A program made the position numbers and the translations under genes. The notes under the pieces are model-generated. The model was given only the letters and a program-made list of their open reading frames with translations. It was not told the origin of the DNA and searched no databases. This document shows, piece by piece, positions 38,487-41,416 of a DNA stretch of 64,000 nucleotides (positions within the stretch are counted from its first letter, which is position 1; each line of letters starts with the position of its first letter). Source of the DNA: an uncultured cyanobacterium (GTDB lineage: Bacteria > Cyanobacteriota > Cyanobacteriia > Leptolyngbyales > Leptolyngbyaceae); the NCBI GenBank assembly GCA_963766075.1, contig CAVYAN010000049.1, positions 13,598 through 77,597 on the forward strand. Direction: 5' to 3'.

Positions 38487-41416
38487 ATGGCTGATCCTGT
38501 CACTTGGACCGCTGGCGCAATCGCCAGTCTGGCCGTTCAAAAATTCCTCGAATCCGGTGCTGGCGAGTTGGGCAAGAAGTTCACCACCGAGGCAATTACT
38601 AAAATGGGCCTGCTGTGGGAGCAGGTGAAGACTAAGCTCATGGGCAAATCGGCCAAGTTGGACGAGGCATTGGTGAAAGTGGAACAGGGCGATCTGCGCT
38701 GCGTTGGATACCGTCGCCAAGCATCTGGATGTGGCCATGGACGAGCATCCCGACTTTGCGGCAGAACTCAAGGTTCTGGCCAATGAGATTCATGCCGGTA
38801 AGCTGCAAGACAATAGCAACATGGTCCAAAACGTGATCGGCAATGACAATAGGAATGTTCAAGCAAAGGCTGAACAGGGGGGGAAACAATTTATTGCTGA
38901 GAAGATGTTACTTTGGGGCGACCGAGGCGGATTGACTGGAGTCGGCGGGAGGGGCACCGCCAAAGAAAAGTACCCCACACAACTTATCCCACAGCGGCGC
39001 GATCGCTTTTATTGGGCGAGACGATGACCTAGAGCGGTTGCACCAGCAGTTGCAGGCGGAGAGGTCCGTGGCGATTGCGGCGGTGTCTGGCATGGGCGGG
39101 ATTGGCAAGACGGAGTTGGCGTTGCAGTATGCGCTGCGCCATCTGAACGCACCGCCCCCTGCGGCATCGACCTATGCCGGGGGCATTTGCTGGCTGCGGG
39201 CGCGGGAAGATCTGGGGCCGCAAATTATCGCCTTTGCCCAGGCCCATCTGAATCTGCCAGTGCGCGAGGATTTGGCCTTGGCAGCGTGGCCTATTGCTGG
39301 CAGCACTGGCGGGCGGGGCGGGTGTTGGTGGTGCTGGATGATGTGCAGGACTATGAGCACCTGCGACCGTGGCTGCCGCCGCCGGAGTCGCGCTTTCGGG
39401 TGCTGTTGACGACGCGGCTGACGCTGAGATCGCCGGTGCAGAATTTTGAAATTCGCGTGCTGTCGGAGCCCAAGGCGCTGGAGTTACTGGGCGATCACCA
39501 GCCCAGGGGCGCGAGGGTCCAGATCCTCGGTTTCTCGAAGAAGCCGGAGATCTGGAGCGGCAGATCTGCTCACTGGCTGGGCTATTTGCCCTTGGGGATT
39601 GAACTGGTGGGGCGCTATTTGGCCAGACGCCGGATCTGCCGCTGGCGGAGCTGTGGCAGCGGTTGCAGGCGCAGAAGCTGGGGGCCAGGCGTTGTTGCGG
39701 GCGGAGCCGGGGATGACGGCGGCACTGGGGGTGACGGCGGCGTTTGAGTTGAGCTGGCAGGCTTTGACGGAGCCAGCGCAACGGTTGGCAGCGCTGCTGA
39801 GTCTGTTTGCTCTGGCGGAGATAGCTTGGCCGTGGGTGGTGGACGGTTGGCCAGAGGCAGACGCGGAAGATCTGGAGGAGTGGCGGGAGCAGTTGTTGAG
39901 GTTGAGTTTGCTGGAGCGGGTTGGGGCGGGGCGGTATCAACTGCATCAACTGCTGCGGGAGTTTTTTGCGCTGAAGTGGGCGCAGTACCCAGACCGGGAG
40001 GAGTTGGAGGTGGTGGTGTGGGATGGGGTGCTGAACGCCGCGCAAAGCAGCTCTGAACGCCCCGATCGCTCCTTGTTGGCAGAAACTAACCTGGTCCTGC
40101 CCCATTTGCAAGCAGCGATCACCCGCCGTGAAACGGCGGGGCAAGACGAGGCAGAAGCCCTCAGCGTAGCTTGGCTAGCGACACTCTACGACTCGCAGGG
40201 ACGCTATGGCGAGGCGGAACCGCTCTATGCGCGATCGCTCACATTTACGAACAGCAGCTCGGCCCTGACCATCCCCATGTCGCCTCCAGCCTCAACAATC
40301 TCGCCGAACTCTATCGCGCGCAAAGCCGCTATGCCGAGGCAGAGCCGCTGTTAACGCGATCACTTGCGATTCGGAACAGCAGCTCGGTCCCGACCATCCC
40401 GATGTCGCGCTCAGCCTCAACAACCTGGCCCACTCTATAAAGCGCAAGGCCGCTACGGCGAGGCGGAACCGCTCTATAGCGCGTCGTCGGCATCCACGAA
40501 AGCAGCTCGGCCCCGACCATCCCGATGTCGCCCAAGCCTCAACAATCTGGCCAGACTCTATAGACGCAAGGCCGCTACGCCGAGGCGGAACCGCTGTATG
40601 CGCGATCGCTTGCGATTCACGAACAGCAGTTCGGCCCCGACCATCCCGATGTCGCCCTCAGCCTCAACAACCTGGCCCACCTCTACACGATGCAAGGCCG
40701 CTACAGCGAGGCGGAACCGCTCTTTAAGCGCGATCGCTGAGCATTCACGAACAGCAGCTCGGCCCCGACCATCCCGATGTCGCCACACAGCCTCAACAAT
40801 CTGGCAAAACTCTACAATCGCAAGGCCGCTATGCCGAGGCGGAACCGCTGTAAGCGCGATCGCTGGCGATTCGCGAACAGCAGCTCGGCCCCGACCATCC
40901 CGATGTCGCCATCAGCCTCAACAATCTGGCAGCACTCTACGAATCGCAAGGCCGCTACGCCGAGGCGGAACCGCTCTTCGTGCGATCGCTGGCGATTGAC
41001 AGAAAGGTGTTCGGCGCCGATCATCCCGATGTCGCCACCAGCCTCAACAATCTGGCATGACTCTACGTCGCAAGGCCGCTACGCCGAGGCGGAACCGCTC
41101 TATGCGCGATCGCTCGGCGATTCGCGAACAGCAGTTGGGAGCCAACCATCCCGATGTCGCCACCAGCCTCAACAATCTGGCATACCTCTACAAATCGCAA
41201 GGCCGCTACGGCGAGGCGGAACCGCTCTTTGCGCGATCGCTGGCAATCAAACAAAAAATGCTGCCGGAAAACCACCCCAGCCTTCAGCTTGGTTGGGACA
41301 ACTTTCGCTCCTTTCTGCAAGCCGTGGTGCAAGCCAACCGGGTCGCCGAACTCTCGGACCATCCCCTAACCCAAGCCCTGCTCCAAGACCTGCAAGGGGC
41401 GCAGAACGACGCCTAG
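38487..41416 (+). pseudogene. decayed STAND NTPase: N-terminal helical domain + NB-ARC + nine 42-aa TPR units (bacterial NLR-like)
   Basis: The gene is reconstructed from ORFs 38253-38786, 38704-39027, 39038-39409, 39187-39747, 39446-40354, 40171-40440, 40364-40999, 40777-41478 and 41057-41416. Motifs are P-loop SGMGGIGKTELALQYA (39089-39112), RVLVVLDDV, RVLLTTR and GYLPLGIELVGRYLA. TPR units read [39 protein letters not shown]. It needs many frame changes and has in-frame TAA 40851-40853 and TGA 41058-41060. Confidence 0.85.

What the first reader, a model, noticed from the sequence alone, without database searches (positions are those of the whole stretch)
38487..41416. Decayed bacterial NLR-like gene: unassigned N-terminal helical domain + NB-ARC + TPR
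Stitching the overlapping plus-strand ORFs yields one ~975-codon gene.
- Domain 1 is a ~150-aa helical N-terminal domain: MADPVTWTAGAIASLAVQKFLESGAGELGKKFTTEAITKMGLLWEQVKTKL...AALDTVAKHLDVAMDEHPDFAAELKVLANEIHAGKLQDNSNMVQNVIGNDNRNVQAKAEQGGKQFI.
- A linker follows: ..PHNLSHSGAIAFIGRDDDLERLHQQLQ.
- Domain 2 is NB-ARC, with P-loop GMGGIGKT, VLVVLDDV, LLTTR and a GLPL-like GYLPLGIELVG.
- Domain 3 is nine kinesin-light-chain-type TPR units.

STAND NTPases with this sensor/NTPase/effector logic act in antiphage defence and programmed cell death, and the N-terminal module is normally the effector. I cannot assign this one. It looks like a helical bundle followed by an N/Q/G-rich segment, a pattern I have seen at the N-termini of other cyanobacterial STAND proteins.

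The gene needs on the order of ten or more frame changes, far denser than the rest of the window.
Basis: partly seen in the sequence, partly recalled or inferred. Interest (0 to 1): 0.7.

Follow-up and report, generated by a model that had tools for sequence, protein, structure and literature searches.

The report
Leaky stop codon links defence genes
This is a broken copy of a two-part cyanobacterial cell-death/defence module, a small helical "killer" protein plus an NLR-type sensor, whose two reading frames are separated by one conserved UGA stop followed by a conserved RNA pseudoknot, which suggests that these bacteria make a killer-sensor fusion by programmed stop-codon readthrough.

Summary
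The frame-hopping NB-ARC/TPR coding signal at 38487-41416 is real. I mapped about 18 frameshifts and 2 internal stops.

It is not one plain gene. All 100 closest homologues of the "N-terminal domain" are stand-alone proteins of 78-156 aa (most 139-156). In the window this small ORF ends at TGA 38933-38935.

That TGA is conserved and in frame with the NLR. It is followed by a conserved spacer (CUNNAGYC) and an H-type pseudoknot with compensatory base changes. I found 81 other non-redundant instances in cyanobacterial genomes and in metagenome contigs not assigned to taxa:
- 80 have TGA and 1 has TAG.
- 72/81 continue in frame, against 0/81 in the other two frames.
- 37/54 have no canonical start before the conserved NTPase N-terminal motif.

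Sister loci without the element use TAG or TAA and a normal ATG. They repeat the small protein's C-terminal motif at the NLR N-terminus, as in Bell/BASS-type amyloid signalling pairs.

Best reading: an effector-UGA-pseudoknot-NLR readthrough cassette, not described in the papers I could search. The window's copy is inactive as sequenced. Other genes in the window, including aspartokinase and a GTPase, are also frameshifted, so assembly error cannot be excluded.

The parts
38487..38935 (+). Small effector ORF of 148 codons plus TGA. It has a Bell-like helical domain (about codons 1-110) and an N/Q/G-rich tail motif (...NSNMVQNVIGNDNRNVQAKAEQGGKQFIAEKMYFGATEAD). It is broken by two one-base insertions at ~38697 (inside a former HIP1 site GCGATCGC) and ~38908.
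   Evidence: Frameshift-aware alignment to P0002. 100 stand-alone homologues of 78-156 aa. AF2 gives a helical bundle at residues 7-110 (pLDDT 85-90) and a disordered tail at 111-150. 88.7% nt identity to the intact L001 gene, with codon-position differences 10/4/30.
38933..38935 (+). Conserved in-frame UGA stop with C at +4, separating the effector ORF from the NLR ORF. This is the proposed readthrough site.
   Evidence: 80 TGA and 1 TAG in 81 unique homologous junctions. The downstream ORF is in frame in 72/81, against 0/81 in the other frames.
38936..38976 (+). Recoding-like RNA element. It has an 8-nt spacer CUGGAGUC (38936-38943), stem 1 GGCGG (38944-38948) pairing with CCGCC (38957-38961), and loop G-run GGGG (38951-38954) pairing with CCCC (38973-38976). 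This makes an H-type pseudoknot that starts 8 nt after the stop.
   Evidence: Covariation is seen in two alignments. A2 (29 sequences): 93.1% paired, 5 of 8 pairs with compensatory changes, 0/500 shuffles. A4 (55 independent metagenome sequences): 96.8% paired, helix 2 at 92.7%, pair 19-38 UA:31/CG:22/UG:2 with no mismatch. The covariance model scores the window copy at 58.4 bits, E~1e-10. No Rfam family matches.
38936..41416 (+). NLR-like ORF: linker LESAGGAPPKKSTPHNLSHSGAIAFIGRDDDLERL, then NB-ARC, a helical/winged-helix region, about 8.5-9 TPR units and a C-terminal tail. It is disrupted by about 16 frameshifts and 2 stops (TAA 40851, TGA 41058). The first canonical in-frame start (TTG 39038) lies after the conserved GR..EL motif.
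   Evidence: Pfam NB-ARC, TPR_10 and TPR_12. Alignment to P0101 (64% identity over 733 aa) and to P0143. ORF list.
39089..39112 (+). Walker A / P-loop GMGGIGKT, 51 codons after the UGA.
   Evidence: Direct reading. The stop-to-Walker-A distance is 47-62 codons in homologous loci, with a mode of 51.
40182..41249 (+). Kinesin-light-chain-type TPR array: 126-nt units, with observed unit spacings of 122-128 nt because of indels.
   Evidence: TRF, anchor spacing, Pfam TPR_10/TPR_12.
41434..41460 (+). G+C-rich inverted repeat CCCCGGCATTTTTCAAAAATGCCGGGG just after the NLR stop (TAG 41414-41416). It may be a terminator.
   Evidence: Read directly from the sequence. The simple terminator scan did not list it.

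Best explanation
The locus is a cyanobacterial effector/NLR cell-death or defence module of the Bell/BASS (amyloid-signalling) kind, in a variant where the two cistrons are joined by a recoding cassette.

Proposed mechanism:
1. Most ribosomes stop at the UGA (38933-38935). They release a ~148-aa protein made of a helical, probably membrane-targeting domain and a short N/Q/G-rich tail that probably forms amyloid.
2. A minority read through the UGA. Readthrough would be helped by the C at +4, a conserved 8-nt spacer and an H-type pseudoknot. These ribosomes make effector-tail-linker-NB-ARC-TPR, the only form in which the sensor gets a proper N-terminus and a copy of the tail motif.
3. Ligand binding by the TPR sensor and NB-ARC oligomerisation would then cluster the tails, nucleate their fold and template it onto the abundant free effector, which kills the cell.

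Shown here: the domain content; the separate small ORF; the conserved in-frame UGA; the structure covariation; the lack of NLR start codons; and the mutually exclusive use of either this element or a duplicated motif.

Inferred, not shown: actual readthrough and its level; the amino acid inserted at the UGA; amyloid formation; membrane killing; a defence role.

The window's own copy carries about 18 frameshifts and 2 stops, so as sequenced it cannot make either product.
For: 1. All 100 homologues of the N-terminal part are stand-alone ORFs. In 3 metagenome and 51 genome loci an STAND NTPase ORF usually follows on the same strand.
2. In 28 of 43 protein-found loci the small ORF ends in TGA (27) or TAG (1) plus the conserved element. 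The 15 loci without it use TAG, TAA or once TGA (Fisher P=3e-9).
3. Across 81 unique junctions, 72 have a downstream ORF of at least 100 codons, or open to the contig end, in frame 0, against 0 in frames +1 and +2 (P=3e-25).
4. In 37 of 54 junctions there is no ATG/GTG/TTG upstream of the conserved xGR..EL motif. In 8 the first such codon is at or near Walker A. In Acaryochloris marina pREB4 it is the Met inside GMGGIGKT, and RefSeq had to annotate an ATT start.
5. Linker codons 15-51 differ at codon positions 1/2/3 by 2908/1901/4159, a coding-like pattern upstream of any start.
6. The pseudoknot shows covariation in two independent alignments.
7. The same tail motif families occur in both designs. 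With no element, the motif is repeated at the NLR N-terminus: L004 AKAEQGGKQWIADKQYF against AQASDGGKQWIAQEQHF, and L011 scoring 140. With the element there is never a repeat: 0/24 against 12/15, P=1e-7.
8. The element follows different effectors, namely several helical families, an alpha/beta-hydrolase and a TIR domain, and precedes different NTPases.
9. Natural fusions exist. P0250 and P0253 have no stop. L116 has a 1-nt insertion that takes the TGA out of frame, giving a continuous ORF through the element.
10. Established knowledge: UGA is the leakiest stop, C at +4 and UGA-CUA favour readthrough, and the MuLV gag-pol readthrough depends on a downstream pseudoknot (PMC7026636); the 8-nt spacing of the MuLV pseudoknot is from my own recall, not from that text. 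Bell/BASS pairs and the N-terminal 'MEPIS' helix are described in 10.1101/2020.01.06.895854 and 10.1101/2024.11.07.622273. The families here start MEPLT/MEPVT/MADPVT.
Against: - There is no direct evidence of readthrough: no proteomic, ribosome-profiling or reporter data.
- Nested MFE folding of the element is no more stable than shuffles (z from -1.4 to +0.4). Support rests on covariation, and the stems are short (5 bp plus 3-6 bp).
- 55 of the 81 junctions were found with a DNA pattern that fixed TGA and most of stem 1. Only helix 2, the pair 19-38 and the reading-frame statistics are independent in that set.
- 17 of 54 loci do have a canonical start upstream of the motif, so independent initiation is possible in some.
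- Homology of the helical domain to Bell could not be tested. Foldseek and a PDB profile search gave nothing significant, and Pfam, NCBIfam and PADLOC have no match.
- I know of no structure-stimulated programmed readthrough in bacterial chromosomal genes, so the prior is low.
- In the window itself nothing can be expressed as sequenced.
Confidence: 0.62

Rival explanations
1. Two ordinary genes. The small protein and the NLR are translated independently, with the NLR starting at a non-canonical or downstream start. The conserved UGA-proximal structure would be an intercistronic regulatory element, for example one that represses or couples NLR translation or marks an RNA processing site, not a readthrough signal.
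For: Gene callers and RefSeq annotate two genes. 17 of 54 loci have a canonical start upstream of the xGR motif. The pseudoknot loop is purine-rich (GGAGG in the window and in L030) and could mimic a Shine-Dalgarno sequence. Programmed readthrough is very rare in bacteria.
Against: This does not explain several observations:
- The NLR is in the same frame as the small ORF in 72/81 loci with no intervening stop, against 0/81 in the other frames.
- Conservation starts exactly at the stop codon.
- The stop is UGA in 80/81.
- 37/54 loci have no start before a conserved domain motif, and 8 would start at or near the P-loop.
- The start-less linker shows coding-like third-position variation.
- The codon after the stop is CUA, CUG or CUC, so reinitiation there is unlikely.

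Confidence: 0.2
2. The dense frameshifts are assembly or consensus errors, for example long-read indel errors left unpolished where paralogous NLR/TPR reads multi-map or at methylated GATC/HIP1 sites. On this view the locus is intact in the organism. This concerns only the 'decayed' part of the finding and is compatible with the readthrough architecture.
For: Other genes in the window that should be indispensable are also frameshifted. The aspartokinase lacks one C at about 28144. A GTPase G-domain is split, and a TamB-like gene lies in three pieces. Apart from indels and 2 stops the sequence looks selected: all NB-ARC motifs are intact, and the comparison with L001 gives 22 synonymous against 15 non-synonymous codon changes, with position differences 10/4/30. 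The 38697 insertion sits inside a HIP1 site that is intact in L001. About 8 of 18 frameshifts lie within about 12 nt of a GATC.
Against: The density is about 70 times the window background. Frameshifts are not in homopolymers. Two disruptions are base substitutions that create stop codons, and some indels are 2 nt long. 9 of 81 homologous loci elsewhere are also truncated, so decay of such genes is common.
Confidence: 0.4
3. One reading: a single ~975-codon NLR gene with an integral N-terminal effector domain, in which every interruption, including the TGA at 38933, is decay.
For: All-in-one fusions of this helical domain with NB-ARC-TPR do exist (P0250, P0253). The stitched frames are continuous.
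Against: The TGA is at the exact position of the conserved stop of 100 stand-alone homologues. The last codons YFGATEAD* match their C-termini (YFGTSEDD*, YFGASDDD*). The element that follows is conserved in 81 other loci.
Confidence: 0.03
4. The UGA encodes selenocysteine, and the downstream hairpin is a bacterial SECIS element.
For: There is an in-frame UGA followed closely by a conserved stem-loop within coding sequence.
Against: One locus has UAG with the same element (L022). No Rfam family, SECIS models included, matches even at E<=10. The loop pairs with downstream sequence to form a pseudoknot, which SECIS elements do not do. The site lies in a linker between domains, with no catalytic role. 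To my knowledge the Sec machinery is generally absent from cyanobacteria; I did not test this here.
Confidence: 0.03

Closest known systems
Bell-domain / BASS amyloid-signalling gene pairs with NLRs in filamentous bacteria (Dyrka et al. 2020, 10.1101/2020.01.06.895854)
   Same: A ~100-aa helical effector domain carries a short C-terminal motif and is encoded immediately upstream of, and collinear with, an NB-ARC/TPR NLR. These pairs are largely confined to multicellular bacteria, chiefly Actinobacteria and Cyanobacteria. Sister loci of this family (L004, L011, L024, L046, L048) show the defining repeat of the motif at the NLR N-terminus. The N-terminus MEPxT/MADPVT resembles the 'MEPIS' helix-1 motif.
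   Different: In the window and 81 other loci the NLR has no motif copy and usually no start codon of its own. Instead the two ORFs are in frame across a UGA followed by a pseudoknot. The paper does not mention readthrough or stop codons. Sequence or fold homology of this helical domain to Bell was not demonstrated here.
Bab/Agp antiphage abortive-infection system of E. coli (Ibarlosa et al. 2024 preprint, 10.1101/2024.11.07.622273)
   Same: A small helical membrane-targeting effector with a C-terminal amyloid motif is activated by an adjacent TPR-containing sensor that shares the motif. This gives experimental support for the logic proposed here.
   Different: [quoted passage not shown] It is two separate genes with a duplicated motif (BASS11) and no recoding. 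The Babybell domain is about 80 aa. No Foldseek match to any PDB chain was obtained for the present domain.
Murine leukaemia virus gag-pol readthrough signal
   Same: An in-frame stop is followed, after a short spacer, by an H-type pseudoknot. The result is a minor fusion product alongside a major short product, at about 5% readthrough. The MuLV stop codon (UAG) and spacer length (8 nt) are from my own recall.
   Different: It is a eukaryotic virus using UAG rather than UGA, with much longer stems. The element here has 5 bp plus 3-6 bp, sits in bacterial chromosomes and plasmids, and has a different conserved spacer (CUNNAGYC).
Coliphage Q-beta coat/A1 readthrough and UGA-C or UGA-CUA leaky contexts
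   Same: UGA readthrough in a bacterial translation system yields a C-terminally extended minor protein. C at +4 and CUA after UGA are known leaky contexts.
   Different: To my recollection Q-beta has no conserved downstream pseudoknot (not checked in the text read). It is a phage gene, not a cellular immune module.
Fungal HET-S/NWD2 and all-in-one HeLo-NLR architectures
   Same: There is an alternation between a two-gene design with a shared amyloid motif and a single-polypeptide design. The helical pore-forming effector is controlled by an NLR.
   Different: These are eukaryotic, and no recoding-based intermediate design is known there.

Membership tests
NB-ARC STAND NTPase (Pfam PF00931) | Profile match above the curated cut-off | tested here: met
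   Stitched translation: E=4e-15, 56.2 bits against a cut-off of 23.5.
NB-ARC STAND NTPase (Pfam PF00931) | Walker A (GxxGxGKT), Walker B (hhhhDD), sensor-1-like TTR and GLPL motifs | tested here: met
   GMGGIGKT at 39089-39112, VLVVLDDV at 39322-39345, LLTTR and GYLPLG, all read in the frame-corrected translation.
NB-ARC STAND NTPase (Pfam PF00931) | An intact, translatable ORF | tested here: not met
   About 16 frameshifts and 2 internal stops between 38936 and 41416. This may be decay or assembly error.
KLC-type TPR sensor array (TPR_10 / TPR_12) | Tandem 42-aa units matching TPR_10/TPR_12 | tested here: met
   TPR_10 E=2.8e-15 and TPR_12 E=5.6e-12 on single fragments. TRF gives 8.5 copies of period 125.
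Bell/BASS amyloid-signalling effector-NLR pair | Helical effector domain of about 100 aa with a short C-terminal motif in an unstructured tail | tested here: met
   The AF2 model has helices over residues 11-105 (pLDDT 85-90) and a tail at 111-150 with pLDDT below 45.
Bell/BASS amyloid-signalling effector-NLR pair | Sequence or fold homology of the helical domain to Bell, Hell or HeLo | tested here: inconclusive
   No hits in Pfam, NCBIfam or PADLOC. Foldseek against PDB gave a best E of 2.9 and the PDB profile search a best E of 0.15. The only support is the N-terminal MEPxT/MADPVT resemblance to the 'MEPIS' motif. No Bell reference sequences were available to compare.
Bell/BASS amyloid-signalling effector-NLR pair | Effector gene adjacent to and collinear with an NLR gene | tested here: met
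   True of the window and of the related loci where a downstream gene could be read.
Bell/BASS amyloid-signalling effector-NLR pair | The same motif repeated at the N-terminus of the NLR | tested here: not met
   In the window the NLR frame begins LESAGGAPPKKSTPHNL with no copy of the tail motif. 0 of 24 element-bearing loci have a repeat, against 12 of 15 loci without the element. Readthrough would supply the motif instead.
Bell/BASS amyloid-signalling effector-NLR pair | The motif forms amyloid and transmits its fold from sensor to effector | not testable with these tools
   This needs fibril or prion assays.
Programmed stop-codon readthrough with a 3' stimulatory pseudoknot | Conserved in-frame stop with a long ORF continuing in the same frame | tested here: met
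   72/81 in frame against 0/81 in the other frames; 80 TGA and 1 TAG.
Programmed stop-codon readthrough with a 3' stimulatory pseudoknot | Leaky stop context | tested here: met
   UGA followed by C at +4 and by CUN in nearly all instances. Known leaky contexts are reviewed in PMC7026636.
Programmed stop-codon readthrough with a 3' stimulatory pseudoknot | Structured RNA a few nucleotides downstream, supported by covariation | tested here: met
   Both helices show compensatory changes, the slid controls reach at most 69% paired, and 0/500 shuffles reach the observed score.
Programmed stop-codon readthrough with a 3' stimulatory pseudoknot | The extension is needed and translated | tested here: met
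   37 of 54 loci have no canonical start before the conserved motif. The linker shows coding-type codon-position bias. A natural variant (L116) has the stop taken out of frame.
Programmed stop-codon readthrough with a 3' stimulatory pseudoknot | The readthrough protein is detected and depends on the element | not testable with these tools
   This needs reporter assays, proteomics or ribosome profiling.
Bacterial SECIS / selenocysteine insertion | UGA-specific, with a SECIS hairpin recognisable by Rfam models | tested here: not met
   No Rfam hit at E<=10 in the window or in L030. One instance uses UAG. The loop is engaged in a pseudoknot.

The most novel reading that the evidence does not exclude
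Cyanobacteria use a conserved, modular recoding cassette to fuse diverse cell-death effectors to diverse STAND/NLR sensors at low frequency. The cassette is UGA, the spacer CUNNAGYC and an H-type pseudoknot. The effectors include Bell-like helical proteins, TIR and alpha/beta-hydrolase domains. One transcript would then yield abundant free effector plus a rare effector-sensor fusion that carries the only sensor-side copy of the signalling motif. To my knowledge this would be the first family of structure-stimulated programmed stop-codon readthrough signals in bacterial cellular genes, and a third architecture for NLR-effector coupling besides 'all-in-one' and 'two genes with a duplicated amyloid motif'.
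Probability: 0.6. Interest if true: 0.9.

Novelty: new variant of a known kind. Interest (0 to 1): 0.8.

Why it matters
Programmed stop-codon readthrough stimulated by a downstream pseudoknot is a textbook viral strategy. I know of no such case in bacterial cellular genes, and I found none in the papers I could search. A conserved cassette present in dozens of cyanobacterial genera would give recoding research a bacterial model that is easy to test genetically.

For bacterial immunity, it would explain how many cyanobacterial NLR-like sensors that appear to lack both a start codon and an effector or adaptor domain are expressed and coupled to their effectors. It would also explain how sensor-to-effector stoichiometry and perfect motif identity are hard-wired.

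There is a practical consequence for annotation. NLR starts are mis-called (for example an ATT start, or a start inside the P-loop), and the small ORFs are left as orphan hypothetical proteins.

For this window alone, the copy is non-functional as sequenced, and the contig's consensus quality is open to question.

Tried and rejected
- Pfam, NCBIfam and PADLOC scans of the small protein gave no family.
- Foldseek of the AF2 model against PDB, and a profile search of PDB sequences, gave nothing significant. Bell/HeLo fold membership could therefore not be established.
- Rfam scans at E<=10 of the window element and of the consensus-like L030 element gave only two weak sub-threshold matches (COG3943 RNA, E=0.94; sR44, E=4.4), neither over the element, in the window and none in L030.
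- MFE folding gave z-scores near zero. It cannot model pseudoknots and the element is short.
- A candidate mini-hairpin GAC-N4-GUC that includes the stop codon was rejected. Column 16 is C in about 11 sequences, giving uncompensated A.C mismatches.
- My first structure string for A4 was off by one column. It was corrected.
- Look-ups of the window's own fragments (P0036) and of P0101 in the contig index found nothing.
- The viral-contig scan for the element gave 0 hits, and a plasmid blastn of the locus gave no match.
- The idea that the frameshifts are homopolymer errors was rejected: none of the mapped sites lies in a run of 5 or more.
- A start codon overlapping the stop (TTGA or ATGA) was considered and rejected, because it would be in the wrong frame for the NLR.
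- Literature searches for readthrough in cyanobacterial NLR/Bell systems found nothing.

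
Full report
**1. The observation**

The + strand between 38487 and 41416 carries a coding signal that jumps between all three frames. Stitched pieces match Pfam NB-ARC (E=4e-15, 56.2 bits, cut-off 23.5) and TPR_10/TPR_12 (E down to 2.8e-15). 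The first ~136 residues match nothing in Pfam. Tandem Repeats Finder reports 8.5 copies of a 125-nt unit at 40183-41244. Unit spacings are 122-128 nt instead of 126.

I wrote a frameshift-aware protein-to-DNA alignment to map the breaks. Against P0002, the first ORF needs two one-base insertions, at ~38697 and ~38908. Against P0101 (Oculatella, 64% identity over 733 aa), the NLR part needs about 16 frameshifts. Their positions are 39278, 39490, 39570, 39628, 39690, 40241, 40366, 40431, 40496, 40533, 40565, 40726, 40788, 40816, 41067 and 41116. It also contains two in-frame stops, TAA at 40851 and TGA at 41058.

**2. The 'N-terminal domain' is a separate ORF**

A search with the stitched 136 residues returned 100 proteins. 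Their lengths run from 78 to 156 aa, most of them 139-156, and none is fused to an NTPase. Their C-termini (…AEKIYFGITEDD*, …AEKMYFGASDDD*) match the window's …AEKM/YFGATEAD followed by TGA at 38933-38935.

A profile search of 1.84 billion representative proteins found 611 relatives. Most are 130-160 aa. A few are true fusions, for example P0250 (957 aa) and P0253 (967 aa), which run helical domain, motif, NB-ARC and TPR in one chain.

AlphaFold2 with a 69-sequence alignment gives a helical bundle for residues ~7-110 (pLDDT 85-90) and a disordered tail at 111-150. Foldseek against PDB and a PDB profile search gave nothing significant. NCBIfam and PADLOC have no model for it.

**3. Two designs in related loci**

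I collected 3 metagenome loci and 51 GTDB genome loci, all of the latter cyanobacterial. The genera include Pseudanabaena, Acaryochloris, Scytonema, Tolypothrix, Brasilonema, Fischerella, Moorena, Richelia and Stenomitos.

- **Design (a), 15 loci.** The small ORF ends in TAG or TAA (once in TGA). The NLR has its own ATG in an arbitrary frame, and its N-terminus repeats the small protein's tail motif. Examples are L004 (AKAEQGGKQWIADKQYF against AQASDGGKQWIAQEQHF) and L011 (NYGGTNYQTKTGQDNTNFLGGEHHH against NYGGTNFQTQTGKDNTNFLGGEHRH, score 140). This is the Bell/BASS amyloid-signalling layout of Dyrka et al. 2020. Experimental support for that logic now comes from the E. coli Bab/Agp system.
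- **Design (b), 28 loci plus the window.** There is no second motif copy, and the small ORF ends in TGA (27) or TAG (1).

The association is strong in both respects. For motif duplication it is 0/24 against 12/15 (Fisher P=1e-7). For stop-codon choice P=3e-9. The same motif families occur in both designs, namely AKAEQGGKQ[FWY]IA and GWQTKVEGGTAYIGE.

**4. The junction in design (b)**

Immediately after the stop comes a conserved nucleotide block, TGA CTR NAG YCG YCC GAA GGG GAA CGG RCA AAG TTA AAT CCC. The NTPase ORF continues in the same frame with no further stop, and Walker A lies 47-62 codons later, most often 51.

The block folds as a 5-bp stem that starts 8 nt after the stop. A G-run in its loop pairs with a C-run 10-15 nt further on, which makes an H-type pseudoknot.

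- **29 protein-found sequences.** 93.1% of cells pair. 5 of 8 pairs have compensatory double changes, for example GUCCG/CGGAC to GCCCG/CGGGC or GGCGG/CCGCC, and GGG/CCC to GCG/CGC, CGG/CCG or GGC/GCC. 0/500 shuffles reach the observed values, and slid controls reach at most 59%.
- **Metagenome scan.** A DNA-pattern scan of metagenome contigs gave 59 more loci. In 55 distinct sequences, helix 2, which the pattern did not constrain, is 92.7% paired with compensatory changes. Pair 19-38 is UA:31, CG:22, UG:2 with no C.A mismatch, although the pattern allowed one.
- **Other checks.** Rfam has no matching family. Nested MFE folding is not unusually stable. A covariance model finds one copy in the window (58.4 bits). 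It also finds an extra copy in Acaryochloris marina pREB4.

**5. Evidence that translation crosses the stop**

- Over 81 non-redundant junctions, excluding the window, 72 have a frame-0 ORF of at least 100 codons or open to the contig end. None does in frames +1 or +2 (P=3e-25).
- In 37 of 54 junctions with a recognisable xGR..EL motif and P-loop, there is no ATG, GTG or TTG upstream of that conserved motif.
- In 8 junctions the first such codon is within 10 codons of Walker A or later. In A. marina it is the Met inside GMGGIGKT, and RefSeq had to annotate an ATT start.
- Linker codons 15-51 differ at codon positions 1/2/3 by 2908/1901/4159, a coding pattern in a region with no start.
- In locus L116 a one-base insertion puts the TGA out of frame, and a continuous ORF runs through the element into a GUN4 domain.
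- The element follows several unrelated effectors: at least three families of helical ~140-aa proteins beginning MEPxT…, a DUF676-like alpha/beta-hydrolase and a TIR domain. It precedes NB-ARC, GxGGYGKS-type and other NTPases. It therefore behaves as a portable joint.
- UGA with C at +4 and UGA-CUA are known leaky contexts, and a pseudoknot a short spacer downstream is the MuLV gag-pol signal.

**6. Proposed mechanism (inferred)**

Termination gives abundant free effector. Rare readthrough gives effector-tail-linker-NLR. On ligand-induced oligomerisation of the NLR, the clustered tails would template the free effector's tails and activate the helical domain.

Readthrough replaces motif duplication. 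It guarantees that the sensor-side and effector-side motifs are identical, and it fixes a low sensor-to-effector ratio.

None of the papers I could search mentions readthrough, stop codons or recoding for these systems.

**7. Status of the window copy**

The cassette itself is intact at 38933-38976, but both ORFs are broken.

Evidence pointing to assembly error:
- The decay is odd for a natural pseudogene, because all NB-ARC motifs survive.
- The small ORF differs from the intact L001 gene (88.7% nt identity) mostly at third codon positions (10/4/30; 22 synonymous against 15 non-synonymous codons).
- The 38697 insertion lies inside a HIP1 site that is intact in L001.
- Other genes in the window are also frameshifted. 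A GTPase G-domain is split between two ORFs. The aspartokinase lacks one base at about 28144. A TamB-like gene lies in three pieces. A kinase/histidine-kinase gene lies in two.

Evidence pointing to real decay:
- The density here is about 70 times the window background (P~2e-27).
- The frameshift sites are not in homopolymers.
- Two of the lesions are substitutions that create stop codons.

I put about 0.6 on a recent true pseudogene and about 0.4 on local consensus error. Only the reads can decide.

**8. Verdict**

The interesting object is not the unassigned N-terminal domain, which is a Bell-like effector with an amyloid-type tail and belongs to a known kind of system.

Noticed in passing
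window 25940-27447 (-): A GTPase gene (MMR_HSR1 + DUF697) is split by a frameshift. MMR_HSR1 profile positions 1-52 lie in ORF 26971-27447 and positions 45-113 in ORF 25940-27076.
   Followed up: partly
window 27800-29583 (-), break near 28144: The aspartokinase (AA_kinase plus ACT domains) is split into ORFs of 507 aa and 126 aa. The break looks like a missing C in GAC-CAG. Because this gene is presumably essential, the break suggests consensus indel errors in the contig.
   Followed up: partly
window 31319-36234 (+): A TamB/DUF748-like giant gene appears as three overlapping ORFs (31319-32353, 31944-32801, 32737-36234), which implies two more frameshifts. One lies near a C5/C6 run at 32323-32334.
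   Followed up: partly
window 15908-21939 (-): A Ser/Thr kinase + AAA_16 ORF (19585-21939) overlaps a GAF + HATPase ORF (15908-19654) by 70 nt. This may be one ~2000-aa multidomain sensor split by a frameshift.
   Followed up: no
window 37491-37721 and 37809-38386: Upstream of the locus there is an array of 21-nt tandem repeats (CGATGTTTGTGAGTTTGATCG-like, 8 or more copies). There are also nested long inverted repeats (37809-37852 with 38328-38371 at 86%, and 37892-37929 with 38256-38293) that look like a MITE-type insertion. In the related locus L001 this space holds a HepT/MNT toxin-antitoxin pair instead.
   Followed up: partly
window 41520-41702 (-): A 60-aa ORF (MNYPMVIYPCEEGGFVAEIPALKGCLAQGETIEE...) resembles HicB/UPF0150-type antitoxins. 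This is from memory and was not tested.
   Followed up: no
window 41964-43961 (+): An intact 665-aa protein has a Pro/Thr-rich linker, five ~85-aa internal repeats and a C-terminal N-acetylmuramoyl-L-alanine amidase domain (Amidase_2, E=2.8e-17).
   Followed up: partly
L013/L056 (Acaryochloris marina MBIC11017 plasmid pREB4, NC_009929.1 36397-39105): This is a complete readthrough-type pair in a cultured, fully sequenced strain. The small ORF is AM1_RS33645, followed by TGA, the element and NLR AM1_RS33650, whose first canonical start is the Met inside Walker A (RefSeq uses ATT). A paralogous helical domain 2.7 kb downstream is fused to an unrelated C-terminal domain (318 aa). It would be a good experimental system.
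   Followed up: partly
L116 1941-2011 (metagenome Ga0654416_0019308): This is a variant of the junction in which an extra G after TGA (CA-TGA-G-CTG) puts the stop out of frame. The helical domain, tail and linker are then fused directly to a GUN4 domain (P0245, 393 aa). The pseudoknot is partly retained (23 bits).
   Followed up: partly
L087 (TGA CTG TAG) and L005, L039, L058, L060, L061, L074, L099, L110: 9 of 81 junctions are followed by an early stop or frameshift, so decayed copies of this module are common in other genomes too.
   Followed up: no
window 38409-38979 vs L001 5924-6509: The window and the MAG locus L001 share the effector's helical domain (88.7% nt identity) and the pseudoknot (92%). 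They carry different tail motifs and different NLR classes, which indicates modular swapping of tail plus sensor around a conserved joint.
   Followed up: partly
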